This document shows positions 4,900-54,685 of a stretch of DNA of 64,000 bases, piece by piece (the first letter of the stretch is position 1; each line of letters starts with the position of its first letter). The stretch lies in contig CM114271.1 of assembly GCA_050084515.1 (NCBI GenBank), positions 12,896,001-12,960,000 on the forward strand, read 5' to 3'. This stretch comes from Blasia pusilla. Taxonomy: Eukaryota. The notes under the pieces are model-generated. The model was not told the origin of the DNA. It ran no database searches and saw only the letters and a list, made by a program, of their open reading frames with translations. The position numbers were made by a program, and so were the translations under genes.

Positions 4900-7690
4900 G
4901 GAACATGGATGATTGCAATACCTATGGGTCCATGAGGGGATCCCGAGGGTTCTCAAGCATGGTGGGAACCGTCGAGTTGGATGATTTTATGAAGGAGTTC
5001 AACACTTGGTGTGATGCACAGAGGATGCGGAACCAATAGAGATTTGACCCCTTCATGGCATTGAAGGGGCTTTTTCAAAATCTGTATGGCCCTCCCATGG
5101 ATGATTATCACGAGTTTTGGATTCTCCATGAGGCGGAGATCGAGACATAAAGACTATTTTGGTCTCCAAGGTATGTGTCTCTCACAGGGCGTGCAATGTA
5201 TGATGTGACTGCTGCAATAGCATCTACTACCCGCACGGAGTAGACGATTGGATGAGTTGTCTTACAATTGGGACTAGTCGAGTACCACCAATGTTCAACC
5301 CGTTGGTTAAGATCTTCCGAGAGTTGGGGAGGAACTATCAAAGAGTGAGGGCCTACAAGCTGAAATCGATTCATGAGTTTCAACGGAGAGCGGGGGAGAG
5401 TCTACGAGAGGCCTATGCACGGCTTTGATGCTTGATCACAGTGACTCATGATGTGATAGAGGCACTGCCAGTTTTGGTATGCTACGCTAAACCACGAGCT
5501 ACGGAAGAGAGTGCGGGATGCAACTCTCTTACATGTTGGTTCTCCTACTCTCAAGTATGTATTTTGTTGGCGGAGCCTATTGAGCTCAAGATACTTGAGG
5601 AGAGTGTTGATGACAAGGGCAGCATACTCAAGGGAGACGAAACAAGTAACAATGTCTCCATCAACATCGGAGTGCACTACTCAAGATCGAGTCATGGGAC
5701 CGAGGGCTATGGGAGGATACCGAGGGCCACCACCACGACTAATAAAATCTTACGCTGGGCAATAAGGCTCAAGTATTTCTTGTTGGACATGTGAAGGTTC
5801 ACATCGTCAATGAGATTGTCAAGAGTAGAATGGAGTGCATGCAACACCTCCAGTTGTATATGAGACGGCGAGGGGAGGCCACCCTTACCTTAATGTGATC
5901 ATTTCCAGAGATATAGTCACACATGTGAGAGATGTTTCAAGCTCCACCCTGAGCTACGCCTAGATGGAGGTCAAGGACTTGGAGGTGGAAGAGGACGAGG
6001 CGTAGGAGGTTGATAGTGTGGTGGAGGTAGGGCCCCACCACTTTCCAGATCGAGTGGAGGACTTGCATCAGAGGCAACTATGGCAATGATTGCTCAGTTG
6101 GAGCAACTCCTTCAAGCTATGAGGGCCTAGCAGGCATCTACATCAAGTGCACGGGGCATGTTGACTTTTGGATTTTCCCAGGCCCAAGATATGGTGTGAT
6201 ATCTAGAAGGTATGGGATTTCTTTGCAACACGGCATAGATGGATGTAGTGGTTACAAGAGGTGAGAGCTTCTAAGCCACTAGGATCTGATGTGGAGTTGG
6301 ATCCCCAAAGGGAAGAAGCTGGCAGGCAGGGTAGACTCCCTCAGTCATTTACATTGCCTGAGGCTCTTCGGACCCCATCAAAGGTCCCTAGACACCCCTT
6401 AAAGAGTGATGTTGTTGCAGGTGCCGATGCAATTAGTGGAGTGGATGAGGCAAGTAGGTCTATCATGTCTATACACCATTCAACACGGCCTAGCACTTGC
6501 ACATTGCGAGAGATTGCAATGGATTTGTGCAGAGTCCCCTATTTATGTGTGGGGACTTGATAACATATGAAGGTCAAGTAGTTGAGGTTTTCCAATTGGC
6601 AACGACACTCTATGAGAGTGATGATTTTGGTTCTTCTAGTATTGAGACTCGCCTAGGAGATGTGGCGGACGTACCCTAGGAACAGGTGCTTGGGACGAGA
6701 TCCACAGAGAGTTGGCATGTAGGAGTGGATAGAGTGGTGGAGTTTCCAGCTAGACCAGCGATAGAGCGCACAACCGTTTCACCAAGATTTTTTGTCTTGG
6801 ACAATGAAGATGGAGTATTCCAATTGGTTGGTCTGTCTGGAGTCATGATTGATCGAAGCGTGTTCTTCTTGATTTAGGAGCACAATCCATTATGTTGGGG
6901 AGGCGGTATGTGTAGCAATGGGATTGCGGAAGTGTGAGATCACTCCATGTCCCCTCCAAATTCAAACTTTACTAGGAGACAGATACCCAACATAGTATAT
7001 GACTCGCGATGAGATTGCAATGAGGATTCAGCTCGATCATCCTATTGGTATTGCGATGGTGCGGACACGAGCGGTGATGACGTCGGACTTGTGCTATGAT
7101 ATTTTGGTAGGGGCAATTGTATTGTATCCTCTAGGGTTCACACTTAACTTTTGGGAGGAGACAGCCTCCTATCAAAAATTTTGGTATTCAAATGAGGGAC
7201 AATCCAATTATCTACCTATACGGTATGAAGAGAGACTTGATGGTTCACTCTGAGGATTGACCACAACAATTACGTTACAACTATTTATGGCACGTTATGT
7301 TGGCCTGGAGACTTACTAGAGAGGAACGCCAATGTAGAGGATATTCCTATAGAGGATAGTCTTGAGGAGTCACAAATGATGACGAGCGTGACTACCGCAA
7401 TTGGTGACAATTCTTTAGTTTTGTGGGGAATCAGCATCGATTTGAGGAGGAGTACAAATGAGCTCGTGAGGCAGGAGTGGAGCTGAGACTATGCTCTAGA
7501 GCGAGACGGAGTCAAAGTTACCACATCCTCTAGGAGTGGAGACGTTGACACCCTTGGACATCACATCAATTGTGCGGCAGTATCCCGAGGAGAGTGTACG
7601 TATACTAGATTTCTTTGGAGGGATTAGTACGCCTTTGGTTGTATTGTAGGCCGAAGTAAAAATATAGCAGTACTTGCATGTTGAGAGGTT
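4900..7690 (+). mobile_element. Degenerate Ty3/gypsy gag-protease-(DNMT start) fragment related to the 37-46.6 kb element
   Basis: Protease RVLLDLGAQ (~6860) and YDILVGAIVLYPLGFTLNFWEETASY (~7090-7170) match LDVLVGGAMLYPMGFFLDSWEESAS at ~40900-40980. It is followed by LTPLDITSIVRQYPEESVRILDFFGGIST...QYLHVE (~7545-7688), which matches the DNMT motif I/II region at ~41335-41475. Truncated thereafter, with many stops. Confidence 0.8.
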
Positions 7691-10600
7691 TAGATATATT
7701 AATGTGATCTTTAAGGCACATTAAATTGAGGTTTTTTATCCTTAATTAGGGGGTGTGAGCAGGATGTCTTGTTCAAACTAAACAAGAGATCCCAAAGGAT
7801 TTCTAGATGACTCAGATTGACTCCTATATGATATTATACAAGTTTCACAAGGTCACTTCTAGGTTGTTTTTTTTATACCTTACAACTTCTTGTCATAAAA
7901 AACTCACTCTGTCCTATGTTCAAAACGAGACTATGAACTCCTTTCTACCTTCCTCAACCAACACCTTGAGAGATACGTAGCATATGACTACAAATGGGCT
8001 TCGCCCAGTCCATTCCCTCATCGGATCATTAGAGTGGTCCCAAAGGGCCCTTATTAAAGTTTCTTAATTATGATAATCCTCTAATAATACAACATATAAA
8101 TTTTATTATTAACAAATTTAGATTCTGCAATTTACACTTTCTTGGGTTAGCCCAAAATAAGTTAAATTTGGTAATCATAGATACATTTATAGATCAAAAA
8201 GTGCACTTATAAAGTTTCAAATAAGAAATTTCCTAGGGGGAGGTTTTTTCACTACAATCTTTTATGTGACCTAAATTCTTAAATGTTCTTTGTCTTCCAA
8301 TAAGAATCTTTCTGTGTGATGCACTAGCATAAGACTTAGTACGTACCCTCAATGTTTTTCCGCATTACAACACCATTAAATAAGATCCTAAGTCACTGCA
8401 CAAAACTTATGTGTGCACATCTCCTCAAAACTTCAACATCTCTAAACTCTACTTTATGTCTCTTCTAACCGTCAACTATATTATTGAATTTTATGAGAGA
8501 ATTGTTAGACGGTGTTGACACTCCAATGTTGGTAGAAATTTTTGTGGATGTTTGATGAAGTGATTGGAGGTCTAATCTTTTAGAAACAAGCGCATGTGTA
8601 GGTATTGAATCCACTACAAACGAGTGTGAACCTACTATTTTCAAAATGACATTTCTTTCCTAAATATATCCACTTCTTTGGGAGTAAAGATACCAAAAAG
8701 AGTATTATTATTTAGATATTAAAAAATTTTGATTACATTTTAATTCTAAAATCCGGATACAAATAAATTTTCAAATCTCCAAAAAAAAATTCAATTCTAA
8801 TACTTTTTCTTGGGCCTTTCTTTTCACATGTTGAATATCCCATCTCTTAAAGAAAAATGGAATTGAAAAGGGACTTTCTCCGTTTTTTTTCAGTCCTTTT
8901 TAATTAATTTTTAAATTTTTAAATGGAAAAAAAGACAATAATAAAAATAGAATAGAATAGAAGAGTTGTACGCTGGAGGGTAATATCCAAAAGGCGGCGC
9001 AGATGACATGGCGCATTTTCATAAGTCGAAGGAACTACAGTACATCACGGCGGACGGTCCGGCGAAAGTACGCATTCTCAGCTGCAGCCGGTGATGGAGA
9101 CGTGCGCACTATTACGAATCGTACAAGGTACTCCTGAGTCCTCACTTTCGAGCGGCGGTCAGGTTACCTCTATGAAACGATCTGATGACGAGGGCCATGA
9201 GGCACGTTGGGAATAGCTTCTGAAATTCTCAACACCGAACGTCGGTTATATTGAGTCAATTCACGGCAAGGAATTTCCTGAGCAGCAACAGTGTACAAAA
9301 TGAGTATTCAACTCAGATATTTCATTGGACAGAAATATTCTACGTAAGTAGTATTTTCATGAAAATATCTTCGCAATAAATTTAGTTTGAAGCGCGAAAA
9401 ACAAATAGGCCTTCGAAAAGCAAGAAATAAAAAAATTTCGTCCGACATGAGGGGAGACTATTTATTCTCCTCGGTCCCACTTTTGAGATGGGATTTTTTT
9501 ATCATTGTAATTTTTATTGAATAAATTTGATTATAATTTCTTAAAATAATCTATTTTATTTTAATATTTTAATTAAAAAAATCATATCAATAACTTTGGA
9601 TTTCCAAAAGAGAGTGATTTAAATATTTTCTCAGACGATTAACATTAAATCCCTCATTCATTTCATTGCCACATTAGTTCACAGGAATGTTAGATATTTT
9701 GTGAATGTTATGTGTTTGCCTTTTCCGGGAAATTTTTTTAAAGAATTTCCCAAAAAATAATTTAATTTTATAATACTATTTAAATTTTCTTTGAACATAA
9801 TAGATGAAATATAATAACAATTCTTTCATTATTTTGTCTGAGGGTTAAGGATTGTTAAGTGCTCTTTGGATGCAATTGTCCTTTTTATTTCAAATGCCAT
9901 ATTTTGTCGAGTTAGTTTTTATGGCCAATAATTTGGTGTCCATGCAATGGACTAGGCCTCATGGATGGAAATGAAAAAGGTGACTTAAAGACCTATTAGT
10001 ATGAAATTCTAACAATGGAAAATCATTATGGTTAACTATTTCCTATGAAATATTTCTGGTTGCAGAAATGAAATTTGGAAAATTAACTTGTCTAATGGTT
10101 TCGAAAATGAAAATTTGACCTACAAATATTTTTGGAAACTTCTAGGGAGAAAATTTGAAGAATTTCAGTGTAAAACCTTTGGATATATTCACAATTATTG
10201 AATTTAAAGCTAACCAAAAAAAAACCCCATTATTTTTTATAAAAACAGAATTTCTTACCCTCTTATTTCAAAACAAATCATGTCCTAATCCTTCTTGATT
10301 TGGGCAAAAGGGAATGGCCTTTCACTTTTCCAAACACTCTGATTATTTGGAGAAAAAAATTTCTCATCATTCTCCTTTTCCCTCTCCTTATCTTTGAAAA
10401 AAATCTGAAATCCCCACCAATTTCTTTAACTAATATTGTTTAAATATGGGAGAAAAGAATGATCAAGAGGGGGACAAAGCAAATTTGAAAAGAGAGGAAA
10501 TATCATAGAAATAATATTCAAATGGTCTTCAAATGGAAATTTTTTCCTTTGTTTCATTAGGTTTACACCTTGATCCTACGCTAACATACAAAACCAATAG

Positions 10601-29729: not shown

Positions 29730-30735
29730 TCTGTCATCAACGGCGGACAACGGCCGAACGCGGCTCCGAATGGTAGCAGGCAGCAGCGGCAGTCGAAGGT
29801 CGACAGTGTACGGCAACGGTGGACCTTTGACGGTGACGCGGGACCATTGTAGGCGACAGCTGCCGCCGGCGCGGCGGCTAGTTTAGGGTTTGAACAATTT
29901 TACCCTAAAAATTGCCTTACAATGGTAATTTTTCAAAATTGGTCATAACTTTCCGCTCGAGCTCCAAATCATGCATTGTCTATTGCACAGGGTGCACAAC
30001 TTCACGATCTATGATGGCGTCAAAAAATCTTTGAACTGGACCTTCCCATTGAAACTAACGAGGACTGTCGTAAATCCCAATGTCTCTTCTCCTACAGAAA
30101 TTTTGGCAGCGCTTCAACGCTGATTTCTCCCAACGAAAATGTAAACCTGTGAAAATAAAAAATCAGCAAGCTTCATGGTGCTCCCAAGAGCACCGGCATG
30201 GGGCAACCCGCCCGCATACTCAATCCTTATCAGGAAAGAGTTTGGGAGAGGGGAGGGGTATACCTCAAGGAGAGAGAGCTTGAGAGCTCATTCTCTCTTT
30301 GACAGGTTATCTCTCCATAGTAATCTATGCTCCCAAGTCAACTCCTTGGCTCTTGACCTAATGTAGGAGATCAAGGGCCACTTTCCAAAATAGAAATTCG
30401 ATTATATACTCAAAATGGTACGTACCTAAAATAGTAAGTTTCTCAATATGGCTCCAAATGAGTCGAAACGAAGGGGAAACCTGCTCTCTCAGGTTTCCCG
30501 GGGCCTCAACAGATCATCTATGACCTCCTGAGCCTATCCTCCATTACTCGGGGAGGCGGTCTACTATATTCCACCGATCTATCCTAAAAGACGTGATAGT
30601 TGTCGTGCGCATACACATCGCTACACAACATACATCGCTATCACCAAACACACACACAAAATATCTCATTGCGTATATTTTTGTGTGTCCGGTGACAGCG
30701 AAGTATGTTTTGTAGTGATGTGTATACGCACGATA
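29730..30735 (-). mobile_element. Rearranged non-coding fragment of the DNMT-retrotransposon family (B-A-C blocks with internal inversions)
   Basis: 29730-30235 is the reverse complement of ~37690-38230. 30310-30598 is the reverse complement of the A block. 30238-30300 is an A-block piece in the opposite orientation. 30601-30735 is a fold-back of the B block (TGTCGTGCGCATACACATCG...TGATGTGTATACGCACGATA). Confidence 0.85.
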
Positions 30736-30738
30736 AAT

Positions 30739-36321: not shown

Positions 36322-38549
36322 TTCCCTCGGATGAAGAAGATAATCATATCTTAAACAATATAAGGGAAAGAAATATACGGGTTGAGATAAGAAAATACCG
36401 AAAAGAGAATGACGTGAGATGCTAAAACAATGGCTCAGAATGTACCAGCGCGTGAATGATGGAAGTTTAGGGTTGGGCTCTCAAAGGGAATAGGTAGATA
36501 TGAGCGTGTTTAGACAAGGTTCCTTGATCACCTCCACATCCCCGTTGTGCTAAGGAGAACCAATGAAACAAGTCAAAACAAAGCACGCGAGCGGGATGTA
36601 CGCGGGCCCTAGAGCCACATGCGGGCTAGGCCCAAAGCGACGAAGTAGAGGATGCGACGTGGCCCAATTTGTCCGTGACGTGAGCCAGACAAAAAAATGG
36701 GGGTCGAGCATGATGCGCACTGGCCGAGAAAGGGCGGATTGCTCGGTGTGCGCGGACATGGGTACCGGCCGTGGTTAGCGCGGGCTCATGGAGCCCGCAC
36801 CTGGGCCCGCACGGACATGTCCCTCTTCGAGACGAACAAGTCAGCAGACAGGGACTTTTTTCACGTGAAATCTTAGCCGCAGGTACTTGGGCCGACACGG
36901 ACATTGTCCGTGTGCAACCTTGGTGGCTACATTAGTATTGTTTAGGAAGAGATATTGTAGAAGAGCCTACATTGAGAAGGGTGTCAGGTCTTTTAGGATA
37001 GATCGGTGGGATCTAATAGAGCGCCTTCATGAGTAGTGGGGGACACGCCTAGTAGGTCGAGGGTGACCTGCTGAGGCCCTTGGAAACCTGAGATAGCAGG
37101 TTTCCCCTTCGTTTCGGCTCATTTGGAGCCATATTGAGGAACTTGCTATTTTAGGTAAATACCATTTTGAGTATATGATCAACTTACTATTTTTGGTAAG
37201 TGGCCCTTGACCTCCTACATCAGGTCAAGAGCCAAGGAGGTGACTTGGGAGAATAGGTTACCATGGAGAGAGCTTGGGAGAGGAGAGGGGTATACCTCAA
37301 GGAGAGAGAGCTTGAGAGCTCATTCTCTCTTTGTTGAACCTCTTGGCATGAGGCAGCGGAGCTATGGTACCTTGCCTTGTGAGTGTAACCCAAGCCTCTC
37401 ATTAGGAGAATGGGTTTGGTTTGACATGAGAGAGAGTGCACACCTTTGAGAGCTATGGTGTGAGATGGTGGAGAGAGAGATTGGATCTTACTTTACAAAG
37501 AGAGAATGAGAGAATGAGAGAGTGAGAGAGCTTCATGGGGGAGCTCGCTGGTCACTCGCTGTTTTTGCAAGTTGGGGACCGTGTTCCCCATTCAACGGCT
37601 CATGGGAGTGCTCACCGGAGCAAGGGCTGCTTTCATTACTCTTTGCATTTGCCGATTTTTCGTGTGGAAGAGTGGCGCGCGGAAGCGCTGCCCAATTTCT
37701 GATAGGGATTGAGTATGGGGACGGGTTGCCCCATGCTGGTGCTCTCGAGAGCACCATGTAGTTTTCTGATATGTATTTTTACAGATGTTACATTTTCATT
37801 GGGAGAAATCAGCGCGGGAGTGCTGCCAAATTTTGTGTAGGAGAAAGAGACATTGGGCTTTACGACAATCCCCGTCAGTTTTTACTGAAATTTCTGATTC
37901 TAAATATTTTTGATGGTAGCGTAGATCGTGAAGCTGTGCACGCTGTGCAACAAAGAGTGCACAATTTGGAGTTGTGAGCAAAAAGTTATGGGCAATCTTG
38001 TAAAGCTGCCATTGCTAGGCGATTTTTAGGGTTAAATCGTGCAAACCCTAAATCAGCCGCCACACCGGCGGCGGCCGTCGCCATCATAGTCACCGTCAAC
38101 GGTCGACGGTCAACCATCACCGTTGACAGTCAACCGTCACCGTCATCGGTCGGCCGTCACCATCAGCGGTCAACCGTCATTGTCAAGGGTCCACCGTCCA
38201 TTGTCCACCCTTTGGATGCCATTGCCGCCATTACGGAGTGGAGGGTCTTCCATGACGTTCGTTGATTCCTTGACTTGCGTCGCCACCACGTACTTTGTTT
38301 TGGCCGCCACCGTCATCGCAGTTTCTTCATCAACCAGTGAAGGCAGATGACCTCCGGTTATGGTGTTTGAGTTTTGATTTCATCTTTGCTATGTTGTGAT
38401 TGGTAGCCGCTCGGCGCGATCGAGTATTGTGCCGTGAAGCTGTAGCCGCAAGCGCCGCCGATTGCCGCGCCGTGCCGTGCTCGTGGCCGCACCGCACCAT
38501 CTCGTCAGCGAGCCGCACCGTCATTATGGAGCGAGTGTGGGATTATTAT

Positions 38550-41050
38550 TGATTGAGGAGGGTATGCCGCCGAGTGCGCATCCACCATCGAGGGCCGTGC
38601 CGTTAAAGCCGTTCCGTGCGCTGCAGCGCCGCACCGTTCGCTGGGACCGCATGACTTGTCTATCGAGGAGTTTTGAGCAGACATCAGTATGGGAGGAGTA
38701 TGACTTGCTGATTGGAGGAGTTGTCTCCACGATCGAGTTGGGGTCGAGATTTGCGATTCTTTGAGGAGCGACATCGACATGTGTTGAGTTACCCATTCGG
38801 TCCTTTACCCTGCGTGTGAGGATTCGGGATTTATTTAGGGATATTGGGTGTGTGGATCTTTGAGAGCATCATTTATGTATGTGGTTTAGGGACATAGACC
38901 TGTGTGGGATGTCGGAGTTGAGGTAGGTTGTCGATGAGATGATAGCCTGGTCGATTTGCCGCACCACGCCGCGTGTTGCCGCGCGTTACACGTCTCGGGG
39001 AGAGAGTGTAGATCGAGTGCCGCATGTTTGGGATGAGTGATTGAGGATTCCTCACGAGGGGCCACTCGCCACGGGAGCGATTGCACCGTCTAGTCGGGTT
39101 AGTCGAGGTTCAACCCTGTGGTTGAGTTCTTTGTTGAGTTGAGGGCGAGCTACCGGGAAGTACGGACGGAGAGTTGCGAGCATACACGACTTCGAGGCGC
39201 TCGGGTGAGAGTTTGCGTGAGGCTTACACTCGCTTGCGCCGGTTGATCAACGCGTCACTCGGGGTGACAGAGGCTCGAGCTATCCGGTCATGGTATGCGA
39301 TGTTGGACCGGACCCTGCGGACGGCAGTGCGGGGGGTGCTTCTTATGAACACCTCCCCTACGTTGAAGATGTTTTTAGGACCGCCGAGAACATTGGCGCA
39401 ACATGGCGGAGGAGAGCGTAGCCACCATGGGTTACAAGGCGAGAGCGATCCACGATTATCGCACCCTGTGCAAAGACGTGGACTCGAGATAGGTCGATCG
39501 TGGCACCACGAGCTCGGGGAGAATACCGAGAGGCCGTGCCCACGAGACCTGCGCCTTCATATGCGGCTCGGCAACGACCGCCTACTATTACTTGTTGGTC
39601 ATGTGGTGGAGCCCATCATGAGCGCGATTGCACTCGTCGGGTCATGGGCGTGTGCCTCGGCATGGAGGAGGAGATGGTCTTTGCACCAGGAGGTTATCGG
39701 TTTGACTATTGTCGAGGTATGGTCATACACGCGCCCGGTGTTTTAGTTTACATCCTGAGTTATGTCGGACCGAGGGCGAGAGGGCACCGAGCGAGTAGCG
39801 GTCGGGTGGGCCTAGAGATCGTGCTCGGTGGTCCCGTTGGGGGCGAGGCTCGAGTTGCCCGGCAGGGTGGTGGAGTTGCCCGTGGAGGAGGTAGAGTACC
39901 ACCACCTAGCGCCGAGGAAGATGCCGGACGTGAGGCTGGGATGGCTTTCGGATACAAAAGCTACAGGAGCGGTGCGCTATGGCATTGAGGTTACCCGATG
40001 CGGATCCGTGGCATCGACATCATATGGAGCGGCCAGGAGATCCGGAGGATCTGGATGGATGTCTTGGGTTGCCGGATGGAGGCCGCCCGATTGTGGCGTG
40101 GAGCGCCGCAAAGTTGGATCCACGAGGGGAAGCGGTGAGGCGAGGACTAGGCTTCCTAAATCTTTCACGTTGTCGGCGATGAGGACCCCATCGATGGGTC
40201 CTCATCAAAGTTCTGGAGAGTTGGTAATGTTGTTGGTGTGCAAGCACGGAGGGCGATGGGGGAAGCGAGTGCAACGACTCCTTGTTGATGCTCGGGAGGG
40301 CATGTGTCGAGCACATTGTTGGGGCGGCCACCGTTGTGTACCGCACTCCTTTATTTTCTGCCGATGTTGTGACGTTGGGAGGTACGCCCGCCGAGGCTTT
40401 TCGGCTGGCCGCTTCACTATGTGAGCGCGGAGTTGGAGTTCCTGCATCACATTCACAGGTGATTGCAGAGGAGGTGATGGACCTGCCCTTGGAGGGATGC
40501 TCGGGCCGTCCACGTCAGATTCATGGCAGGCTGCGGCTGCTAGGATGGCGGAGATGCCCGCTAGACCCGCGATAGAGCGTGCCATGGCTTCTCCTGGTGT
40601 TGTGTTCTTTGGATAACCAAGGAGAGGTCTTCGTTGGTGAGTCCTGGAGGTAGAGCTTTTAGTCCGCAGCGCGTCTTGTTGGATTCAAAAGCGCAACCCT
40701 TGATGTTGGGGAAAGCGTCATTCAGAGGATTGGGCTTGACGAGAGCCGATGTGGAGTGTTGTCCATATCGGATAAAGACATCCTTGGGTGGAGCGAGTAC
40801 CCACGATATATCACCCGATAGGAGGTCGTGGTGAGGATTCGCCGGGACATCCTGAGATGAGTCCGTGGTGTGCGCCAAGGCGATAGTGGCGATCTTTGAG
40901 TCCCTCGACGTCTTGGTTGGTGGAGCAATGTTATACCCGATGGGGTTTTTCCTGGATTCTTGGGAGGAGTCGGCGTCCTCTGAGACCAGGATGGCGGTCG
41001 GTGATGGGCGCCTTAGCTCATTACCCGTTCGATTCACAGTGCGATGATCG
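38550..41050 (+). pseudogene. gag (zinc knuckle) and aspartic protease of the DNMT retrotransposon, frameshifted
   Basis: GESLREAYTRLRRLI (gag core, ~39200), CWSCGGAHHERDC knuckle (~39590-39632), RVLLDSKAQPLMLG (~40670) and LDVLVGG (~40905). Confidence 0.78.
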
Positions 41051-41334
41051 AGCAGCGGCCGGAGAGATGGCGACCTTAGCGGCATTTAGCGGTGCCATCA
41101 CTTAGCCTAGTGATTTGATTGAGGACATGTCCATGCGAGAGGATACTCCCGTTCTTGACATTTGTATGGAGAGGAGTGTTATGGTATTTGCATCATTCCG
41201 TGGAGGAGAGGTGCCCCTGTGGGGCTCGGCGAGGAGCTTCAACGATTAGCGGATCTTGCGTGCGGCCGCGTGGAGCGAGGCGTTTGCACGAGCGTGGCGG
41301 TTTGAGGAACCGAGGTAGCGGGAGTGCTACGATG

Positions 41335-42290
41335 ACACCCTTGGATACTACACCCATTGTGTGGTGTACCGGAGGAGGGTATTCGAGTGTTAGATCTCTT
41401 TGGAGGGATTAGCACCGGGTTAGGCTGCTTTTTTGGCGAGGAGTCGAAAATCTGGAAGTACTTGTATGTGGAGTGTGATGATGTTGCGGCGCGTCTCACT
41501 ACAACATGTGGCGCAATTACGCCTACGTTTTCCCGACTTATTATGCTGCGTCCAGCGTCTGGGTACCGAGTTCCCTACCGAGGGATATTTTGTTGTTGGG
41601 GGCGCAGGACTTAGAGCAGGTAGGGACCATTGATTTGGCCATTGCCGGTTGGCCATGTCAGGGCCAATCGAGTGCTGGACGAGGCAGCGGGTTGGCTGAC
41701 ACTCGGTCTAGGTTGTTTTGGGAGATGTTGAGGGTCTTACGGCAGTTGCAGGAGCACTAGTCTCGTTCTCCAGCCTACATTCTGGAGAATGTGCCGATCT
41801 TAGGAGACTCCAGGTCACGGGTCGTGACGAGTGCTCATCAAGTGCGTGCCTGGATCGGCCCAGCAGTGTTCTTGGATGGGGCGAGTGTAGGTTCTAGAGC
41901 CCATCGCCCGCGTCTATGGTGGACCAACTTGGTGCCCCATGCGGTGTTATGGAGGGCGTATCGAGAGTGAGCGCCCCCCCCTTTGTTAGTGGATTCCATT
42001 CGGATCCATATCGTCGATCCTGAGCGGTGAGGCACGATGATCGACCACCGCCGCGTGGTCGCGGGGTAAGGCAAAGCGGGCGGCAGCTTGCCCACGTTTG
42101 TGAGTTTTCCGCTTCCTATGCATACAAGGAGGCCGATCCTAGCTTGGTTTGGGATGACCAGGTTCAGCGGTTGGTGGAGCCCAACGCCGAGCGAGAGAGA
42201 GCGGCGATGGGATTTCCCCGGGGAGGACGGCGGTACCATCGGTGTCGAGAGGCATCACGACGCCATGTCTTGGGTCAGCGATGGACTGAA
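41335..42290 (+). pseudogene. C5-cytosine DNA methyltransferase domain (DNMT3-like motif order) within pol
   Basis: Motif I IRVLDLFGGISTGL (41381); II YLYVECDDVA; IV IDLAIAGWPCQGQSSAG (PCQ at 41653-41661); VI YILENVP (ENV at 41785-41793); VIII AHRPRLWWTNL (~41900-41932); IX/X LVEPNAERERAAMGFP...RRHVLGQ (~42170-42280). One in-frame TAG at 41758 and several frameshifts. Confidence 0.92.
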
Positions 42291-42899
42291 GCGCTTGACA
42301 TGGATCCTCGGCTGGGAGTGGGCGAGAAGCGTCGTATGAGATCGCGACAGATCACGGCCGGTTGCGTTCTTTGAGCCCCATGCCTACCGAGACGGTGGAG
42401 CGTGGTTGGGCGAGACCGAGGAGATCTCGCACCATGGGAGATCGGGAGAGACACCCTTGGACTTCTTGGGATGTTTTGAAGGTACGCAAGGAGATGATAG
42501 CCACAAACATCGGCGTGGTTTCGGCACCTTTGCACGTGGAGGAGATCGAGTTTGCGGTTGGTTGCAGGAGAGCGGCGAGTGTTGTTGTTCGAGACGGGGT
42601 TGCACCATAGAAACCACCGGTACCAGCGCCGGAGAGTCCTACCGTAGTCACGATGGAGACTTGGGAGCGGATATGGGCCCTAAGTTGGGGAGGAGAGCGG
42701 CGCCGAATACATCGATTCTGAGGAGTTATAGGAGCCGCTTTATGTTAGCATGGAGGATTTGGAGTGCGCTGAAGGGTCGGGGATCCGCATTGAGTTGTCG
42801 AGTGATATGCCGATCTTCCGCGACCCTCTGTACAGTCTGATGATATGGAGAGGGCTCTGATTGAGTAGGAGCCAAGACTTGGTCGGAGCGAGGACTAGT

Positions 42900-44070
42900 G
42901 GAGATGTCGCATGGGGAGTATGCATACGCCCTTTGTCATGCCCGCCAGAGAAGGATGTACATGGCAACTGGACGGATAGGCGGATGTGTGGGGATTACCG
43001 ACCTATCAATCGACAGACGAAGTCCGATAGGTATGCCATGCCCACCCCTGAGGAGATCTTTGATACGATTGGTCACGCAAAGGTCTTTAGTTCATTGGAT
43101 TTGTGAGCTGGATACCATCAGCTGCCTATCAGATTGGAGGACAGCGAAAGACGGCATTTTGGGGCATCGATCCTCACGGGAAGGATTGTTTGTACGGTGG
43201 CGGTTCTTACCATTTGGGTTAAAGAACGCCCCGGCTGAGTTTCAGAGGATCTTGGCTCGTCTGGATTTTGCTAGGTGTTATATTGATGACATCGTAGTCT
43301 TTAGCACCACGGTTGAGGAGCATGAGCAACATCTAGAGGAGGTGTTGCGACGATTGCAATTACATGGGATGAAGCTACATCCAGGCAAGTGCAAGTTCTT
43401 CTCGACCAGATTGAGTACTTGGGTCATACGATATACCCGGGGCCTAGGTGTTGGTGGCGAAGGTAGAGGCTATCTCACGCATTCCCGCCCTCTGAGATGT
43501 GAGCCGTGTTCGGCGCATTCATGGGATTGGCGAACTTCTATCGGCGATACGTCAAGGGATTGATTCGATTATGAAGCCGTGACCTTGCTCACCAAGGTGG
43601 ATCACGAGTGGCACTTTGGGGGGATAAGCGAGGAGGCGAGCATTTCAGTTGCTCAGGAAAGGTTGGCGTCGCACCCATCTTGAGGAGACCGATCGGGCGT
43701 CCTTTTGAGTTGCATCTGATTGGAGCATGTTGGGGCTTGGGCGGTGCTCACCCAAAGCATGATGATGAGGGTAGAGAGTTTGTGGTGGCTTACGCTAGCC
43801 GCTCGAACAACGCTTCTGAGGTAATCTGGCTCGTATGAGGGTGAGTGCTTGGTGCGGTATGGGGTCGTCGCATTTTAGGTGTTACTTATTCCTCAACCCC
43901 TTTACCATCATCACTGATCATCAACCACTGAAGTGGTTGATGGAGTCCGACAAGCTTACAGGGAAGCTTGCAAGATGGGCTCTGTTGTTGCAGGAGTATG
44001 ATTTTGAGGTGGTACATAGACCTAGAACGCTCAACCAGGATGCAGATGGGTTGAGTCGTATCCCATGCTC
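42900..44070 (+). pseudogene. Reverse transcriptase and RNase H
   Basis: RMCGDYRPIN, FSSLDL, LPFGLKNAPAEFQR and CYIDDIVVFS; RNase H VVAYASR, TDHQPLKWL, ARWALLLQEYDFEV and DADGLSR. Confidence 0.95.
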
Positions 44071-44439
44071 GAGTGAGCGAGATGCGGCCCAGAGCTTCGA
44101 TGGCATGGAGAGAGTGATGAGGAGTGGGTGCCAGGATGGCACGCGCGTCGACCTATTTAGGCATGTTGGCTATGGAGAGCAGTGTGGAGACTTTGATGGC
44201 GAGGTCTAGTGGAGAGTCTTTGGATCCCGAGGGCAGTGAGGACACGACAAGTGGCCGAGATATTCATGATGATGGAGTAGTCTTAGAGTACCTTCGTACT
44301 GGCAGCCTTGCAAGCACCATGGATGCTAGAGAGCGGGATCGGATCCTCTGGCCCGGGCGAGGCCAGTTCCGTTGGGAGGGGACACATGTTTTGAGGGTTT
44401 GGGAGGATGGCGAGTGCGCGTAGTGCGCATCCTTTGCAG

Positions 44440-45330
44440 CATGTACGACTAGTGCAAAGCATGCCCACGAGGAGTTGGGTCACTTTGGGGTGAAGCGGAC
44501 GTATAGCTTGCTCAGATTCGAGTATTGGTGGCGAGGCATGAGAGGCGGCGTTCGGCGATTTGTTGCCAGGTGCATGGTGTGTGATCGGGTCGAGCATCGT
44601 TCAATGCTCCGACTCCACGATTGCATCCATTACCGATCATGGGCTTAGGGTATAGATGGAGTTTGGATTTTGCGGGACCTTTGCCCTTGACGGAGCATCA
44701 CAATCGTTATGTGTTGGTGATGGTGAGCACTTCTCGAAGTGGATCGAGTTGGTTGCTTTGCACGACAAAGCAAGTGAGGGAGTAAGCTTATGCCTTCCTT
44801 GACAGAGTCTTTGAGTGATTATGGCGCACCGGTGAGGTGTTGAGACAGGTACCGAAGTTTTGCGGTGAGTTCCAGGCCTTGTGTGATCGGCCGATCGACC
44901 ACCGCCGCGACCGTGAGATCATCCTGAGGCGGATGGATTAGCGGAGAGAGTTATGCGAGGCGGTGAAGAGGGTTTACGCAAGTATGGCTTGAAGAGGTCA
45001 CCTAGGAGATTGGGACCTCCGGTTGCCATGGTTGGCGATGGGATACAGATTCAGCGACGAGCATCCTTAGCGTCTTTTTCACCGTACTTGCTACTTTATG
45101 GCGAGAGCCGATTTACTGCGGCCATTCGTCGAGATGTTGGTGAGGTGTCTGAACCTTGATGACCCGGATGTATGGGTACGAGCATGTTCGAGAGGGCTGA
45201 GTTATTCGGAGAGTGATGCCCATGGCGTTCGAGAACTTAGCGATTGCATCGGGATACGATGAGGTATCGACTATTCGAGGTGGTGGTTATCGACCAACTA
45301 TCCGGAGGTTTCATCAGGAGATTATGTCTA
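44440..45330 (+). pseudogene. DDE integrase
   Basis: HHCC zinc finger HEELGHFGVKRTY...YWWRGM...CMVC, core WSLDFAGPLP...RYVLVMV..FSKWIE, and HPEADGLAER. Confidence 0.9.
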
Positions 45331-45540
45331 TTTGCAGCAGAGCGGCACCGGCGGCGTTGGATGTGCTGCAGGCGCACTATCCGAGAGTGCGTGACATTTT
45401 GCCATCGGGTGTTCTCTTCTGGAGGGACGCGATGGTATGGTATGGAAGGACCATGTGCGTAATTGTGCGCCATGTCACCTTCCTAACATTGATGGTACAG
45501 AGTAGATCCGAGCTTAGTAGTAGTTTCTGCAGGCTTGCGT

Positions 45541-45677
45541 TGTATGTTGTGTGGTTACGCCGTAGTGCGTACGATGCTAGTCTGTGATGGGTGTTGAGAG
45601 GATGGCATATGGCATGTTTGGCGCCACCTCTCACTAGGGTTCCTCAGGGGCGATGGATGTGTCCCAGATGTACATAG
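45541..45677 (+). pseudogene. PHD finger at the integrase C-terminus
   Basis: CMLCG...MLVCDGC(frameshift)RGWHMACLAPPLTRVPQGRWMCPRCT* fits the C4HC3 PHD pattern with the conserved Trp. Confidence 0.9.
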
Positions 45678-48600
45678 AGAAGGTAGTTCTACATTCCGAC
45701 TTGTGTCTATGACATCAATGACAAGGAGGCGACTCACGATGGGGCCACATGAGCACCCGGCCTTCTTGCTCTTAGCGTCCGAGAGATGTATGTCATGGTA
45801 GGTAGGGATAGATGGCTATCTGGAGTTAGAGGGACCTAACCACCAGCTAGGGGGGCGATTGGAGATATTTTGGTTCTTCTTGTCTCGTTGTTTGGATGCC
45901 ATGAGTTAGCATGGGATCATGCGTGTTTGTGTGTGTGTTCGGTGACAGCGATGTATGTTGTGTAGCGATGTGTATGCGCCATACGGACTTGGTATCACGT
46001 CTTTTAGGATAGATCGGTGGGATCTAATAGAGCGCCTTCATGAGTAGTGGAGGACACGCCCAGTAGGTTGAGGGTGACCTGCTGAGGCCCTTAGCAGGTT
46101 TCCCCTTCGTTTCGGCTCATTTGGAGCCATATTGAGGAACTTGCTATTTTAGATAAGTACCATTTGAGTATATGATCGACTTACTATTTTTGGTAAGTGG
46201 CCCTTGACCTCCTTCATCAGGTCAAGAGCCAAGGAGGTTACTTGGGAGAATAGGTTACCATGGAGAGAGCTTGGGAGAGGAGAGGGGTATACCTCAAAGA
46301 GAGAGAGCTTGAGAGCTCATTCTCTCTTTGTTGAACCTCTTGGCATGAGGCGGCGGAGCTATGGTACCTTGCCTTGTGAGTGTAACCCAAGCCTCTCATT
46401 AGGAGAGTGGGTTTGGTTTGACATGAGAGAGAGTGCACACCTTTGAGAGCTATGGTGTGAGATGGTGGAGAGAGAGATTGTATCTTATTTTATTGGAGAT
46501 ATTTTGGTTCTTCTTGTCTCGTTGTTTGGATGCCATGAGTTAGCATGGGATCATGCGTGTTTGTGTGTGTGTTCGGTGACAGCGATGTATGTTGTGTAGC
46601 GATGTGTATGCGCACGACAAGGGAGAAAGAAAGTTTTTGTTGTAGATTTGGAAGAAAAACATGCTTCTTTACATAAAAGATGATGAATTTTCTCTGTACT
46701 GTCTTGCTTTATCTTGTCACGCTACATCCACTTCCTCGATCAATTGCACCTTTCAACTACTCCTAACTTCTCATCCTAGCAAAAATCGCTAAAAGCTTCT
46801 TAGCTAGCCAACTCGGTGAAGGGTTTCTTAGTTTCTCTTCATCCTCCTTTTTTCTTCAAGTAAGTTTTCCACATTATGTGCTCCCATCTTTCTTTCTAGT
46901 TCACTAATCCTAGTTACCGAGTGTGCTAACTCAAATGCCATATAATTTCCAGCAGTCTGTCCTTGCTTCACGACTACTCTCAAGTCTCTACCCTTTGAAC
47001 TAAGGCTTGATGAATATCTAGCACTCAACCATGATCCTCTACCAGGTCCTCTACATCGCCCATTTTTACAAAGTTTGGGGGCTGAATTCTCCAGCATGCT
47101 ATCTTAATTTACCGGTATTGTAGTGCGATCGGGTCAACTAAATGAGCTCCATCCAATAAGATACAAGGAGGACCCCCTTTTGTGTGGAGCAATGGGAACA
47201 CTCTTAGATGTGGGTTATGAAAATTTTCCTTAATCCCAAACGGAATAATTGAATGAGAACCCCACTCACAATTGTAGTGAAAACCCCCCATTGTGTGAAA
47301 TTAGAACCAAAAGAAAAGCTCTTGAATTAAATATAATAATGAAACTCATAAAAAATCTTAATTCTACTTAATTTAAACACGAGTGGATTTCAGAACTAAA
47401 AGCTGCTCGGCAATACTTCTTCCTACAACAAGAGAAGTTAGTGTAGTCATACCATTAGAGTAGGATTGTGTAATGTACCCTTTCATAGTAATATAAATTT
47501 TAGACTATTAAAAATCAAGACGTATGTGTGCGATTGCAACAAAGAACGCAAGAGCAGCGTGCAAAGATGAAGAAATGGGAGAAGGTTTTGTGATGATATT
47601 CTATTAAACATTAAAATAAAACCTAGAAAATGTTATAAATATAGCCTTAAAAAAAGTCTCAAAATCGACTTCCAATAAGGACTTGACAAGTGTTGAGAAA
47701 AGGAGAGATGAAAATCATGAGAAATTACTTCAAAAACAACATTGCTGGAAAGTTAAAAAGAAAATTTTGAATCGATACGTTACGAGAAAATAGAGGGTGA
47801 AAAGAAATATACGTAGGAGAAGTTATAGCAATAAAAACATGGCTGGAAAGTGAAAAAGAAAATTTTAAAGTTTCATATCAAAATTGAACTCCAGTAACGC
47901 CTCGACAAGTGTTGCCTACTATGGACACACGCTCCCTAAAGCAGTTGACCATCAAGAAATGCTAATCCACATTCTAATTCAGTTTTTAAAAAAATTCTTT
48001 AAGATTTCATTTAGTAGATGTTGAGTTTTGAAGCTGATCAAAAGAAAAATACTATGGTGCCAAACTTTTTCAATTTTACTTAAAAGTTGGAGAGAAAATA
48101 ACAGGAACCTTATAATTTTGGAGGACAAATTAACCATTCGTTTCATAATCTGAAAGGATTCCAATGAGCTTTAGTCAGGTTTTGTTCCACGTTTCATAGG
48201 TTTCATAGCAATCAGATCGCCGATAGCAGGTACCAAATCTCCCTCGAGCACGGTCTTAGCTTCGAAGAGAAAGGTGCCGGTCGGACCGTAGGGTTCTCAT
48301 TTCTCGGTGAATATCAGGCGCCATAAGTGTGCCAGAATCATGCGCGTACTCAAAGATTCGAGAAGTGAAGCTGGATTCAAGTCCCCAGCTAGGGCCTTAA
48401 GAGCGACTTCATCGTACCTGATCATTTGGGAAGCTTTTCTCTTCCATCGTTCCTGCACCGCTCGCTTTTGCTGCATAGCACGGGGACACTTTCCCAACCA
48501 CATTCTACACCAACTCTTGTAGGAGATTGGATACACTAACACAATGTTGTCGGCTTTTCAGTTTTCTTTTTCTTCATTGGTGGTCCTTTCAGCTCACCTC

Positions 48601-54658: not shown

Positions 54659-54685
54659 ATACATACGGTTCCTGCGCTCTCGACA

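What the first reader, a model, noticed from the sequence alone, without database searches (positions are those of the whole stretch)
41335..45677. Ty3/gypsy retrotransposon carrying its own DNMT3-like cytosine methyltransferase between protease and RT, plus an integrase-linked PHD finger
Seen: six conserved C5-MTase motif regions (I LDLFGG, II VE, IV GWPCQ with the catalytic Cys, VI ENV, VIII HRPRLWWTNL, IX/X MGFP..RRHVLGQ). They lie in unpermuted order (DNMT3-like, unlike circularly permuted DRM), inside pol between protease and RT. A C4HC3 PHD finger ends pol. Established: DNMT-bearing retrotransposons were reported in dinoflagellates and charophyte algae (de Mendoza et al. 2018), and PHD fingers read histone H3 tails. 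Inference: this appears to be a land-plant lineage that pairs a methylation writer with a chromatin reader in one polyprotein. It could methylate its own cDNA in the particle and target integration by histone state. I cannot tell whether this family is already described in this taxon.
Basis: partly seen in the sequence, partly recalled or inferred. Interest (0 to 1): 0.92.

Follow-up and report, generated by a model that had tools for sequence, protein, structure and literature searches.

The report
Dead DNMT-carrying gypsy retrotransposon copy
This is a decayed copy of a plant jumping-gene family that carries its own DNA-methylating enzyme and a histone-reading finger; the kind was described in one green alga, and here it turns up in many copies in bryophyte land plants.

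Summary
Window 41335-45677 lies inside a 9.6 kb retroelement (36982-46619). It carries C5-methyltransferase motifs I, IV, VI, VIII and IX/X in unpermuted order (Pfam PF00145, 46 bits), then RT, RNase H, integrase zinc domain and a terminal C4HC3 PHD finger (PF00628, 26.2 bits). This copy is dead: many frame changes and stops.

It is not a one-off. A second diverged copy in the window has the same gag-PR-DNMT start. Relatives 48-73% identical occur in Marchantia, Calypogeia and Sphagnum, and in 80 fetched metagenome loci. The nearest solved structures are DNMT3A/B for the methylase and Ty3 for RT/IN.

- The DNMT ends ORF1 (gag-PR-DNMT). A conserved in-frame stop (44 of 45 loci, and the window) separates it from RT-RH-IN-PHD.
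- The termini are split direct repeats (A1-internal-B1-A2-B2), not two plain LTRs, with a 4 bp target duplication.
- The DNMTs of named bryophytes and the window form one clade (100/99 support).

The kind is already published as KnitGypsy-Dnmt3 in Klebsormidium (de Mendoza 2018). My searches found no paper on bryophyte members. Verdict: new member of a known kind. Enzyme activity and PHD targeting remain inferred.

The parts
36978..36981 (+). 5' copy of a 4 bp target-site duplication (AGGG)
   Evidence: Read. The same four bases follow the element at 46620-46623. The relative L066 has AAGG on both sides; L041 has none clear.
36982..37495 (+). A1, the 5' terminal repeat; begins TGTCA
   Evidence: 36980-37495 matches 45991-46492 at 94.4% over 516 columns (98% in the ungapped 300 nt). 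No B repeat lies upstream of it.
39109..41100 (+). gag remnants (CCHC knuckle about 39560-39610) and aspartic protease remnants (LLDSKA about 40640-40660), in several frames
   Evidence: tblastn of Marchantia Mp_4g09160 (P0171) residues 135-760, broken over all three + frames with stops; translation.
41335..42464 (+). DNMT3-like C5 cytosine methyltransferase domain, motifs I-X in unpermuted order; two frame changes, an in-frame TAG (41759-41761) and a TGA (41968-41970)
   Evidence: Pfam PF00145, 46 bits. Aligns to P0171 residues 859-1247. 71% identical to the intact relative P0162 in alignment A1. P0162 hits DNMT3A structures best.
42608..42610 (+). In-frame TAG that ends ORF1 (gag-PR-DNMT); the RT reading frame follows in the same frame
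   Evidence: At the equivalent place, 44 of 45 related loci have TAG or TAA, and 11 of 11 loci read in detail continue in frame.
42747..44209 (+). Reverse transcriptase and RNase H remnants
   Evidence: Pfam RVT_1 61.2 bits and RT_RNaseH 48.3 bits; tblastn of P0236 residues 51-523.
44424..45499 (+). Integrase: H2C2 zinc domain (44424-44645) and DDE core remnants
   Evidence: Integrase_H2C2 55.8 bits. The core pieces gave no Pfam hit in the window but align to P0236 residues 670-979, where Pfam finds rve.
45493..45674 (+). C4HC3 PHD finger at the end of ORF2, split by a frame change near 45595; stop at 45675-45677
   Evidence: PF00628 26.2 bits on 45588-45674. The same finger lies 2-14 residues from the C-terminus in 8 of 10 relatives checked.
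45836..45855 (+). Conserved purine-run motif just 5' of B1 (polypurine-tract-like)
   Evidence: The motif is found at 20 sites in 19 loci plus the window, always after the coding region.
45858..45979 (+). B1, internal copy of the short repeat
   Evidence: 122 of 122 nt identical to 46492-46613.
45991..46492 (+). A2, second copy of repeat A
46492..46619 (+). B2, the 3' terminal repeat; the element ends ...GACA
   Evidence: The A-to-B joint is also seen in contigs of three runs from two coded organisms (table 5).
4923..7721 (+). Second, more diverged copy of the same family: gag-PR-DNMT motif I (RILDFFGGIS), cut off just after motif I
   Evidence: tblastx collinear with 39100-41420; translation; tblastn of P0171 residues 5-923 with many stops.
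29795..30736 (-). Rearranged fragment of the family (B end, A, start of the internal region, with small inversions)
   Evidence: blastn.
2..487 (-). Fragment of the family: A repeat starting at its TGTCA end and running into internal sequence; runs off the window
   Evidence: blastn; sequence.

Best explanation
**What it is.** The finding is the coding 3' two-thirds of a dead 9.6 kb copy (window 36982-46619) of a high-copy Ty3/gypsy-type retrotransposon family of bryophytes. I read it as a land-plant branch of the 'Gypsy-DNMT3' elements described in the charophyte Klebsormidium.

**Shown**
- Intact relatives encode ORF1 = Gag (CCHC) - aspartic protease - DNMT3-like C5 methyltransferase.
- A conserved in-frame stop follows ORF1.
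- ORF2 follows in the same frame = RT - RNase H - DDE integrase - C-terminal PHD finger.
- The DNA ends are split direct repeats (A1-internal-B1-A2-B2).
- The element begins TGTC and ends GACA, and has a 4 bp target duplication.
- The internal B1/A2 junction is a palindrome of the two ends.

**Inferred**
- ORF2 is made at a lower level than ORF1, by stop read-through or by restart at a nearby AUG. The methylase would then be produced with Gag and protease rather than with RT/IN.
- The methylase acts on the element's own new DNA, or on DNA near it.
- The PHD finger is most like readers of unmethylated H3K4 (that reading specificity is recalled, not tested here). It would steer the integrase away from active promoters, as chromodomains do for chromoviruses.
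- Integration uses the DDE integrase on ends that are templated by, or cut from, a joined-ends (circle-type) junction.
For: **Domains in the window.** Pfam, and tblastn to P0171 and P0236.

**The family exists.**
- A second copy in the window carries the DNMT start.
- 31 proteins match at E<=1e-8 and 48-73% identity: 10 named Marchantia polymorpha, 3 Calypogeia fissa, 2 Sphagnum troendelagicum, 16 unnamed. More Marchantia models and Sphagnum fallax appear.
- 91 of 195 pattern matches in metagenome contigs encode a relative; 80 were kept.
- Contigs of 4 of 4 runs cover all 30 bins of the element. 289,493 contigs of run X1 were laid at 85% likeness or more.

**Architecture.**
- P0171 (Marchantia) shows gag, protease and DNMT motifs in its sequence, though Pfam found only PF00145 in it.
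- P0321 has zf-CCHC / Asp_protease / DNA_methylase. P0236 has RVT / RNaseH / H2C2 / rve / PHD. Their clusters share contig lengths.
- 18 of 33 loci of 9 kb or more carry the DNMT together with an ORF2 alignment that reaches the PHD.

**Stop between the ORFs.** 11 of 11 loci read in detail. Of 45 loci: TAG 31, TAA 13, TAC 1. The window has TAG at 42608.

**DNMT3-like.** All 16 best solved matches are DNMT3A (E 6e-12). DNMT3B and 3C follow, then tobacco DRM at 1e-8, then bacterial enzymes at 3e-4 or weaker.

**Catalytic residues.** W-P-C of motif IV, N-V of motif VI and PRLWW of motif VIII are invariant in 14 sequences. Among 41 loci, ENVP is kept in 38 and GWPCQ in 25.

**Selection.** dN/dS is 0.18 for the 40 deepest pairs.

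**Ty3 type.** Ty3 Gag-Pol is the best solved match of ORF2, at E 1e-105.

**PHD class.** The best solved matches are CHD4, DPF3, PHF12, ATXR5, KDM5 PHD1, PHF21A and AIRE.

**Repeats.**
- Window.
- B1..B2 is present at 5 of 15 testable sites.
- A1 without an adjacent B is found in the 3 of those 5 whose 5' end is in the locus.
- The junction is a palindrome in 4 of 4 relatives, and a 4 bp duplication is present in 2 of 3 complete elements.

**Clade.** 16 rows including the window, support 100/99.

**Published parallel.** KnitGypsy-Dnmt3 is described with DIRS-like repeats and Gypsy domains (section 9 and the Fig. 4 legend).
Against: - This copy cannot work: it has frame changes and stops throughout.
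- Most relatives are decayed too. Only 2 of 41 loci with a full-length DNMT match have no stop in it.
- dN/dS among close copies is 0.54-0.79, which is as expected if most divergence is post-insertion decay.
- No methyltransferase activity has been shown for any Gypsy-DNMT3. The K. nitens domain gave no methylation in yeast, which the authors call inconclusive.
- 10 of 15 testable sites show no B2 repeat, and L041 has no clear target duplication. The split-repeat layout therefore rests on 5 elements.
- No K. nitens sequence was retrieved, so kinship with the published family rests on shared architecture, not on a tree.
- No PHD was seen in any named Marchantia model.
- The 80 loci were found through the DNMT, so they cannot reveal DNMT-less family members.
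Confidence: 0.85

Rival explanations
1. The family is real, but its methylase is no longer a DNA methyltransferase. It would be a decayed or structural leftover, or serve some other role such as binding DNA or RNA in the particle.
For: - The only assay of a Gypsy-DNMT3 domain found no methylation.
- Only 2 of 41 copies are stop-free in the domain.
- Motif IV departs from GWPCQ in 16 of 41 copies.
- The main window copy is not CpG-depleted (observed/expected 0.93-0.97).
Against: - The catalytic Cys-bearing PC, ENV and PRLWW are invariant or nearly so across named bryophyte genera and metagenome copies.
- Deep-pair dN/dS is 0.18.
- The domain has been kept at one position across liverworts and Sphagnum.
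- The yeast result was inconclusive, because the human DNMT3B control also failed.
Confidence: 0.12
2. The bryophyte elements captured a DNMT3 independently of the Klebsormidium elements. They would be convergent, not one old streptophyte lineage.
For: - de Mendoza 2018 shows that such captures recur (abstract and section 9).
- Relatives place the methylase at different positions: PR-DNMT-RT in P0028, RT-RH-DNMT-IN in P0034 and P0054.
- No K. nitens protein appeared among the named hits.
Against: - Both share an unusual pairing: Gypsy domains with DIRS-like repeats (legend).
- DNMT-RT polyproteins also occur in Closterium and Mesostigma, and an RT-RH-IN-PHD ORF2 relative occurs in the Coleochaete transcriptome.
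- Closterium copies sit next to the bryophyte clade in the tree (weak support).
Confidence: 0.25
3. It is a tyrosine-recombinase (DIRS/PAT/Ngaro-type) element rather than a gypsy element, as the split direct repeats would suggest.
For: The A1-internal-B1-A2-B2 layout defines the PAT and Ngaro groups (passages of PMC4157794).
Against: - The window has an integrase H2C2 domain.
- Intact relatives have an rve core and show no recombinase family.
- ORF2 matches Ty3 best.
- A 4 bp target duplication is present in 2 of 3 complete elements.
Confidence: 0.03
4. The methylase is a host gene fragment, or an independent insertion peculiar to this copy or to this assembly.
For: None found.
Against: - The same junction of protease to DNMT is present in the second window copy.
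- It is also present in Marchantia gene models and in dozens of loci in one continuous frame.
Confidence: 0.01

Closest known systems
KnitGypsy-Dnmt3 of Klebsormidium nitens (de Mendoza et al. 2018, PMC5890265; sections 9-10 and the Fig. 4 legend read)
   Same: - An intron-less, unpermuted DNMT3-type methylase inside the coding region of a Gypsy-type element.
- Repeats described as DIRS-like despite the Gypsy domains.
- Many copies per genome.
   Different: - The host here is a land plant (bryophyte clade).
- The DNMT closes ORF1, ahead of an in-frame stop.
- A PHD finger ends the integrase. The word PHD occurs 0 times in that paper's main text; its figures and supplements could not be seen.
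- Sequence kinship was not tested here.
SymbioDIRS-Dnmt3 of Symbiodinium (same paper)
   Same: A DNMT3-type domain carried by a retroelement. Activity on CG was shown for these elements.
   Different: They are tyrosine-recombinase DIRS elements in dinoflagellates, with an unrelated RT lineage according to the paper.
Chromoviruses (Ty3/gypsy with a chromodomain at the integrase C-terminus)
   Same: A chromatin-reader module is fused to the integrase C-terminus. This is the model for reader-guided integration (recalled; introduction of the 2026 preprint).
   Different: Chromoviruses carry no methylase.
EpiLTRs of Cymbomonas and Euglena (bioRxiv 10.64898/2026.05.21.726589; passages read)
   Same: LTR elements that combine a DNA methyltransferase with a chromatin reader.
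   Different: They carry an adenine methylase plus a DNMT4-related cytosine methylase and a chromodomain. That preprint states their DNMT acquisition is distinct from Gypsy-DNMT3.
PAT / Ngaro split-direct-repeat retroelements (PMC4157794; passages read)
   Same: The A1...B1-A2-B2 repeat layout, with the internal repeats after the last enzyme domain.
   Different: Those use a tyrosine recombinase. This family has a DDE integrase and target duplications.

Membership tests
Ty3/gypsy (Metaviridae-type) LTR retrotransposon | Domain order PR-RT-RNase H-IN | tested here: met
   Window order. The intact relatives P0321 and P0236 show the same order.
Ty3/gypsy (Metaviridae-type) LTR retrotransposon | RT/IN sequences nearest to Ty3-type enzymes | tested here: met
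   P0236 hits Ty3 Gag-Pol 7q5b at E 1e-105 and Ty3 RT 4ol8 at 7.5e-80, ahead of caulimovirus and retroviral RTs. The window aligns to P0236 residues 51-1038. No RT tree against named plant lineages was made.
Ty3/gypsy (Metaviridae-type) LTR retrotransposon | DDE integrase with H2C2 zinc domain | tested here: met
   H2C2 scores 55.8 bits in the window. The rve core is not detected by Pfam in the broken window pieces but is detected in P0236, P0228 and P0269.
Ty3/gypsy (Metaviridae-type) LTR retrotransposon | Two complete long terminal repeats at the ends | tested here: not met
   The layout is A1-internal-B1-A2-B2 in the window, L041 and L066. The 3' part of that layout is present in L013 and L075. 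The remaining 10 of 15 testable sites show no B2.
Ty3/gypsy (Metaviridae-type) LTR retrotransposon | Short target-site duplication | tested here: met
   AGGG in the window and AAGG in L066; none clear in L041.
Gypsy-DNMT3 (KnitGypsy-Dnmt3) | Unpermuted DNMT3-type domain inside the element's coding region, without introns | tested here: met
Gypsy-DNMT3 (KnitGypsy-Dnmt3) | DIRS-like repeat structure together with Gypsy domains (Fig. 4 legend) | tested here: met
   The figure itself was not seen.
Gypsy-DNMT3 (KnitGypsy-Dnmt3) | Sequence relationship to the K. nitens copies (RT and DNMT trees) | not tested
   No K. nitens protein was returned among the named hits.
Gypsy-DNMT3 (KnitGypsy-Dnmt3) | Purifying selection on the DNMT (the paper reports Ka/Ks < 0.2) | tested here: inconclusive
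   dN/dS is 0.18 for 40 pairs with dS > 0.8, but 0.54-0.79 for the 774 pairs with dS 0.02-0.5 among decayed copies.
DNMT3 subfamily of C5 methyltransferases | Motifs I-X in the standard order with catalytic PC and ENV | tested here: met
DNMT3 subfamily of C5 methyltransferases | Closest characterised relatives are DNMT3 enzymes | tested here: met
   DNMT3A, 3B and 3C rank above DRM and the bacterial enzymes. This is a sequence search of solved structures only, not a phylogeny.
DNMT3 subfamily of C5 methyltransferases | PWWP and ADD regulatory domains N-terminal to the catalytic domain | tested here: not met
   Pfam finds no such domain in P0171, P0165, P0174 or P0321. Gag and protease stand there instead.
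PHD finger (PF00628) | C4HC3 zinc-ligand pattern and a profile match | tested here: met
   The window's C-terminal half scores 26.2 bits against a cut-off of 24. The full pattern is present in 10 of 10 relatives. P0236 scores 39.7 bits.
PHD finger (PF00628) | Binding of a histone H3 tail | not testable with these tools
   There is only likeness to solved H3-tail readers.
DIRS/PAT/Ngaro tyrosine-recombinase retroelements | Tyrosine recombinase in place of an integrase | tested here: not met
   Searches find integrase domains and list no recombinase family.

The most novel reading that the evidence does not exclude
An old streptophyte lineage of DDE-integrase retroelements has been inherited vertically in bryophytes since before mosses and liverworts split, and is still very abundant in at least one of them. 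It carries a complete 'epigenetic kit':
- a DNMT3-type writer, made with Gag;
- an H3K4me0-type PHD reader on the integrase;
- a replication and integration cycle that runs through a joined-ends junction (split direct repeats), unlike textbook LTR elements.

If natural Marchantia copies are intact, the long-open question of what a transposon-encoded DNA methylase is for would become testable in a tractable land-plant model.
Probability: 0.35. Interest if true: 0.7.

Novelty: new member of a known kind. Interest (0 to 1): 0.5.

Why it matters
**Why the question is open.** Transposon-encoded cytosine methyltransferases invert the usual picture, in which methylation is the host's weapon. Their function is unknown. 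Activity has been shown only for dinoflagellate DIRS elements.

**What this finding adds.**
- The Gypsy-DNMT3 kind is abundant in land plants, with gene models already annotated as 'hypothetical protein' in the model liverwort Marchantia polymorpha. That gives a system with genetics, methylomes and chromatin maps.
- The methylase is made with Gag and protease, ahead of a stop.
- A PHD reader sits on the integrase.
- The split-repeat ends with target duplications hint at an integration route not expected for a gypsy element.

**Practical point.** Such copies inflate DNMT gene counts and can be mistaken for host DNMT3 genes in bryophyte annotations.

Tried and rejected
- **Own genome.** None is held for this window, so copy counts and a genome-wide census were not possible.
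- **Pfam on small broken pieces.** The motif I piece, the motif IX/X piece, the rve core pieces and the PHD N-terminal half gave no hits.
- **Structure prediction.** The intact relative P0162 was predicted with the 14-row alignment A1. Mean pLDDT was 39 and pTM 0.40. That is too poor to search folds with, so no fold search was run.
- **Sequencing runs.** No RNA holder was listed. Run X14 is only guessed to be RNA, so the contigs laid from it say nothing about expression. Depth figures from contigs were not used as copy numbers.
- **dN/dS on stop-free copies.** Only one pair was usable. It was replaced by all 41 copies with stop codons skipped.
- **First scan for B repeats.** It missed L041 and L066 because of BLAST's low-complexity filter. 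It was repeated with the filter off.
- **K. nitens sequences.** I looked for them among named hits and found none. This is weak evidence, because the word-based searches have limited reach.
- **Literature on bryophyte DNMT-retrotransposons or PHD-integrase elements.** Searches returned none. Passages of PMC6453930, PMC11982613, PMC5784723 and PMC12344493 gave none either. Supplements were closed. Those of PMC5890265 and PMC12344493 may list land-plant copies or show the PHD.
- **Ordinary LTR = B+A with a truncated 5' LTR.** I considered this for the window and rejected it as the sole explanation. Two other complete elements (L041, L066) and a window fragment also begin exactly at A.

Full report
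**1. The observation**

- motif I: RVLDLFGGIS
- motif II: YLYVECDD
- motif IV: IAGWPCQG
- motif VI: ILENVP
- motif VIII: AHRPRLWWTNL
- motifs IX/X: AMGFP...RRHVLGQ

The motifs lie in three frames. The frame changes near 41560-41590 and near 41970-42030. There is an in-frame TAG at 41759-41761.

Pfam results:
- PF00145 scores 37.9 bits on 41482-41760.
- PF00145 scores 46 bits (cut-off 22) on 41578-41967 read with X at the TAG.
- Downstream: RVT_1 61.2 bits, RT_RNaseH 48.3 bits, Integrase_H2C2 55.8 bits.
- On 45588-45674: PHD PF00628 26.2 bits (cut-off 24).

The PHD finger is split by a frame change near 45595. Its first half has the Cys pattern but gave no Pfam hit. The motif I and motif IX/X pieces alone also gave no hit. 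The copy is a pseudogene.

**2. The element around it**

Repeats:
- Repeat A: 36980-37495 matches 45991-46492 at 94.4%.
- Repeat B: 122 nt at 45858-45979 matches 46492-46613 at 100%.
- The order is therefore A1-internal-B1-A2-B2.

The element runs from TGTCA at 36982 to GACA at 46619. It is flanked by AGGG on both sides.

tblastn with the Marchantia protein Mp_4g09160 (P0171) and with an intact ORF2 relative (P0236) maps the coding regions:
- gag-PR-DNMT to 39109-42464
- RT-RH-IN-PHD to 42747-45674

The matches are broken over all three frames and contain many stops.

The host is a plant. The window holds an expansin gene (Expansin_C 89.8 bits, DPBB_1 71.3 bits). It also holds other plant-type transposons.

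**3. It is a family, and the methylase belongs to it**

*In the window.* A second, more diverged copy at 4923-7721 is collinear from gag through protease into DNMT motif I (RILDFFGGIS). It stops just after that motif. Two further fragments lie at 2-487 and 29795-30736.

*In protein databases.*
- HMMER against 1.84 billion representatives gave 2713 hits at E<=1e-3.
- Long hits are polyproteins. P0028 has CCHC-PR-DNMT-RT-RH-IN. P0034 and P0054 have RT-RH-DNMT-IN, and P0034 also has a PHD. P0019 has DNMT-RT-RH-IN.
- The word-based search gave 31 proteins at 48-73% identity: 10 named Marchantia polymorpha, 3 Calypogeia fissa, 2 Sphagnum troendelagicum, 16 unnamed.
- A second search added further Marchantia models and Sphagnum fallax.
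- More distant DNMT-carrying polyproteins carry names from Closterium, Mesostigma and Scenedesmus.
- An RT-RH-IN-PHD relative is a complete ORF in the Coleochaete scutata transcriptome set.

*In metagenome contigs.* 91 of 195 pattern matches encode a relative, and 80 loci were kept. These were found through the DNMT, so they cannot show DNMT-less members.

*In sequencing runs.* Contigs of four runs from two coded organisms cover all 30 bins of the element. 289,493 contigs of run X1 were laid at 85% likeness or more. At a number of places most other copies differ from the window's copy by 1-2 base indels. The family is highly repeated, and at least some of this copy's breaks are private to it. 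Contig depth was not used as copy number.

**4. Coding layout**

- In 11 of 11 loci read in detail, the DNMT frame ends at one stop and the RT frame continues directly in the same frame.
- Over all loci where the flanking peptide is recognisable, the codon is TAG in 31, TAA in 13 and TAC in 1 of 45.
- The window has TAG at 42608-42610 at the equivalent place. It lies 51 residues after HPWTSWD; L006 has 45.
- Marchantia Mp_4g09160 (1278 aa) shows gag, protease and DNMT motifs in its sequence and ends there. Pfam found only PF00145 in it.
- P0321 (CCHC / protease / DNMT, 1451 aa) and P0236 (RT / RH / H2C2 / rve / PHD, 1039 aa) have clusters that share contig lengths.

So writer and reader lie in two consecutive ORFs. 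How ORF2 is translated is not shown. An AUG lies a few codons from the stop in several lineages but not in the window. Read-through and restart both remain possible.

More distant relatives do have everything in one ORF: P0269 (1516 aa; DNMT, RT, RH, IN and PHD confirmed) and P0305 (1966 aa; the same families in its precomputed Pfam list).

Co-occurrence of DNMT and PHD:
- 18 of the 33 loci of 9 kb or more have a DNMT together with an ORF2 alignment that reaches the PHD.
- The PHD pattern sits 2-14 residues from the C-terminus in 8 of 10 relatives checked.
- 20 of the 111 relatives found with the RNase H piece list PF00628. None of those 20 is a named Marchantia model.

**5. What kind of methylase and finger**

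*Methylase.*
- The intact relative P0162 is 71% identical to the window piece in alignment A1.
- It matches 49 solved sequences. DNMT3A fills the first 16 rows (E 6e-12).
- DNMT3B and 3C follow, then tobacco DRM (1e-8), Arabidopsis DRM2 (1.6e-4) and bacterial enzymes (3e-4 or weaker).
- There is no PWWP or ADD domain. Gag and protease stand N-terminal to the catalytic domain.

*Conservation.*
- Across 14 sequences, W-P-C (motif IV), N-V (motif VI) and PRLWW (motif VIII) are invariant.
- Among 41 loci with a full-length match, DLFGG is kept in 39, ENVP in 38, GWPCQ in 25 and RPRLWW in 22.
- Only 2 of the 41 have no stop in the domain.
- dN/dS is 0.54-0.79 for pairs with dS 0.02-0.5 and 0.18 for the 40 pairs with dS > 0.8. 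This fits selection along the lineage followed by neutral decay after insertion.

*PHD.* The best solved matches are CHD4, DPF3, PHF12, DPF2, ATXR5, KDM5 PHD1, PHF21A and AIRE. From memory, most of these read unmethylated H3K4 or the unmodified H3 tail. That is a lead, not a test.

*Element type.* ORF2 of P0236 matches Ty3 Gag-Pol best (E 1e-105).

**6. Ends of the element**

- A conserved purine-run motif precedes B1 at 20 sites (19 loci and the window).
- 15 of those sites have enough downstream sequence to test. 5 show B1...B2: the window, L013, L041, L066 and L075.
- In the three whose 5' end is available (window, L041, L066), repeat A2 recurs upstream as A1 with no B beside it. In L013 and L075 the contig ends inside the coding region.
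- The other 10 testable sites show no B2.
- In 4 of 4 relatives the B1/A2 junction reads GACA-NN-TGTC. That is the element's two ends joined head to tail as a palindrome.
- A 4 bp duplication flanks the window copy (AGGG) and L066 (AAGG), but not clearly L041.
- The A-end to B-start joint is also seen in contigs of runs X1, X4 and X7.

This is the split-direct-repeat layout of PAT and Ngaro elements, here combined with a DDE integrase. It agrees with the Fig. 4 legend of de Mendoza 2018, which says the K. nitens element has DIRS-like repeats with Gypsy domains.

One reading that produces exactly this order is integration of a form in which two B-A units are joined and the palindrome in one of them is opened. 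This is inference only.

**7. Placement**

I built a maximum-likelihood tree of the motif IV-VIII core from 30 rows. They were chosen from several hundred hits for names or architecture; the rest were left out.
- One clade holds the window, 6 Marchantia, 3 Calypogeia, 3 Sphagnum and 3 metagenome rows, with support 100/99.
- Each genus is monophyletic. The window sits on its own branch.
- Closterium and other algal or metagenome copies lie outside.

No host DNMT3, DRM or K. nitens sequence was available, so membership in DNMT3 by phylogeny and kinship with KnitGypsy-Dnmt3 remain untested.

**8. Literature**

- de Mendoza et al. 2018 (abstract, sections 9 and 10, and passages read) describe Gypsy-DNMT3 only in K. 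nitens. They found no activity for its domain in yeast, which they call inconclusive.
- A 2026 preprint (passages read) refers to 'streptophytes (Gypsy-DNMT3)'.
- Searches, and passages of four further papers, gave no description of bryophyte members, of a PHD on such an integrase, or of the ORF1 stop.
- Supplements were closed and may hold such data.

**9. Verdict**

The finding is real and correctly recognised in kind. It is a dead member of a large bryophyte family of the known Gypsy-DNMT3 type. The land-plant distribution, the two-ORF layout, the terminal PHD and the split repeats with target duplications are worthwhile additions. Methylase activity and PHD-guided integration are still hypotheses.

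Noticed in passing
window 36982-46619 versus the rest of the window and L006, L025, L041, L047, L066: The main copy is not CpG-depleted (observed/expected 0.93-0.97, GC 0.54-0.55). The rest of the window is at 0.65, and related copies in metagenome loci are at 0.53-0.59. The sense strand is strongly G-rich over C (0.33 against 0.21).
   Followed up: partly
window 18213-19385 (-): An open 391-residue gag-protease ORF of a different gypsy-type element (Retrotrans_gag, Ty3_capsid, zf-CCHC, Asp_protease_2).
   Followed up: partly
window 21329-23627 (-): MULE-type transposase remnants (MULE domain 42.3 bits on 22002-22484). The neighbouring ORFs gave no Pfam hit.
   Followed up: partly
window 54635-55714 (+): An expansin gene (DPBB_1 and Expansin_C). 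A stretch between the N-terminal part and the DPBB domain looks like an intron.
   Followed up: partly
window 58675-61023 (+): An open 782-residue ORF with a zf-C17orf113 domain and a weak, sub-threshold DUF4371 match, as in hAT-related transposase-like proteins.
   Followed up: partly
window 33232-34098 (-) and 34941-35732 (-): Two open ORFs just upstream of the element. One has a weak C-terminal RING finger (20.4 bits, below cut-off). The other has a partial protein kinase domain (36.4 bits).
   Followed up: no
window 29795-30736 (-): This family fragment carries an inverted duplicate of the B end next to the direct B end, and a small inverted piece of A. The cause is unexplained.
   Followed up: no
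proteins P0028, P0034, P0054, P0019: Among more distant relatives the methylase sits at different places in the polyprotein: after PR, or between RNase H and IN. This suggests domain shuffling or repeated capture.
   Followed up: partly
cluster of P0227: One member of this RT-RH-IN-PHD cluster is filed in public records under an uncultured cyanobacterium, and a related short protein under a betaproteobacterial MAG. Both are probably eukaryotic contigs binned into bacterial genomes.
   Followed up: no
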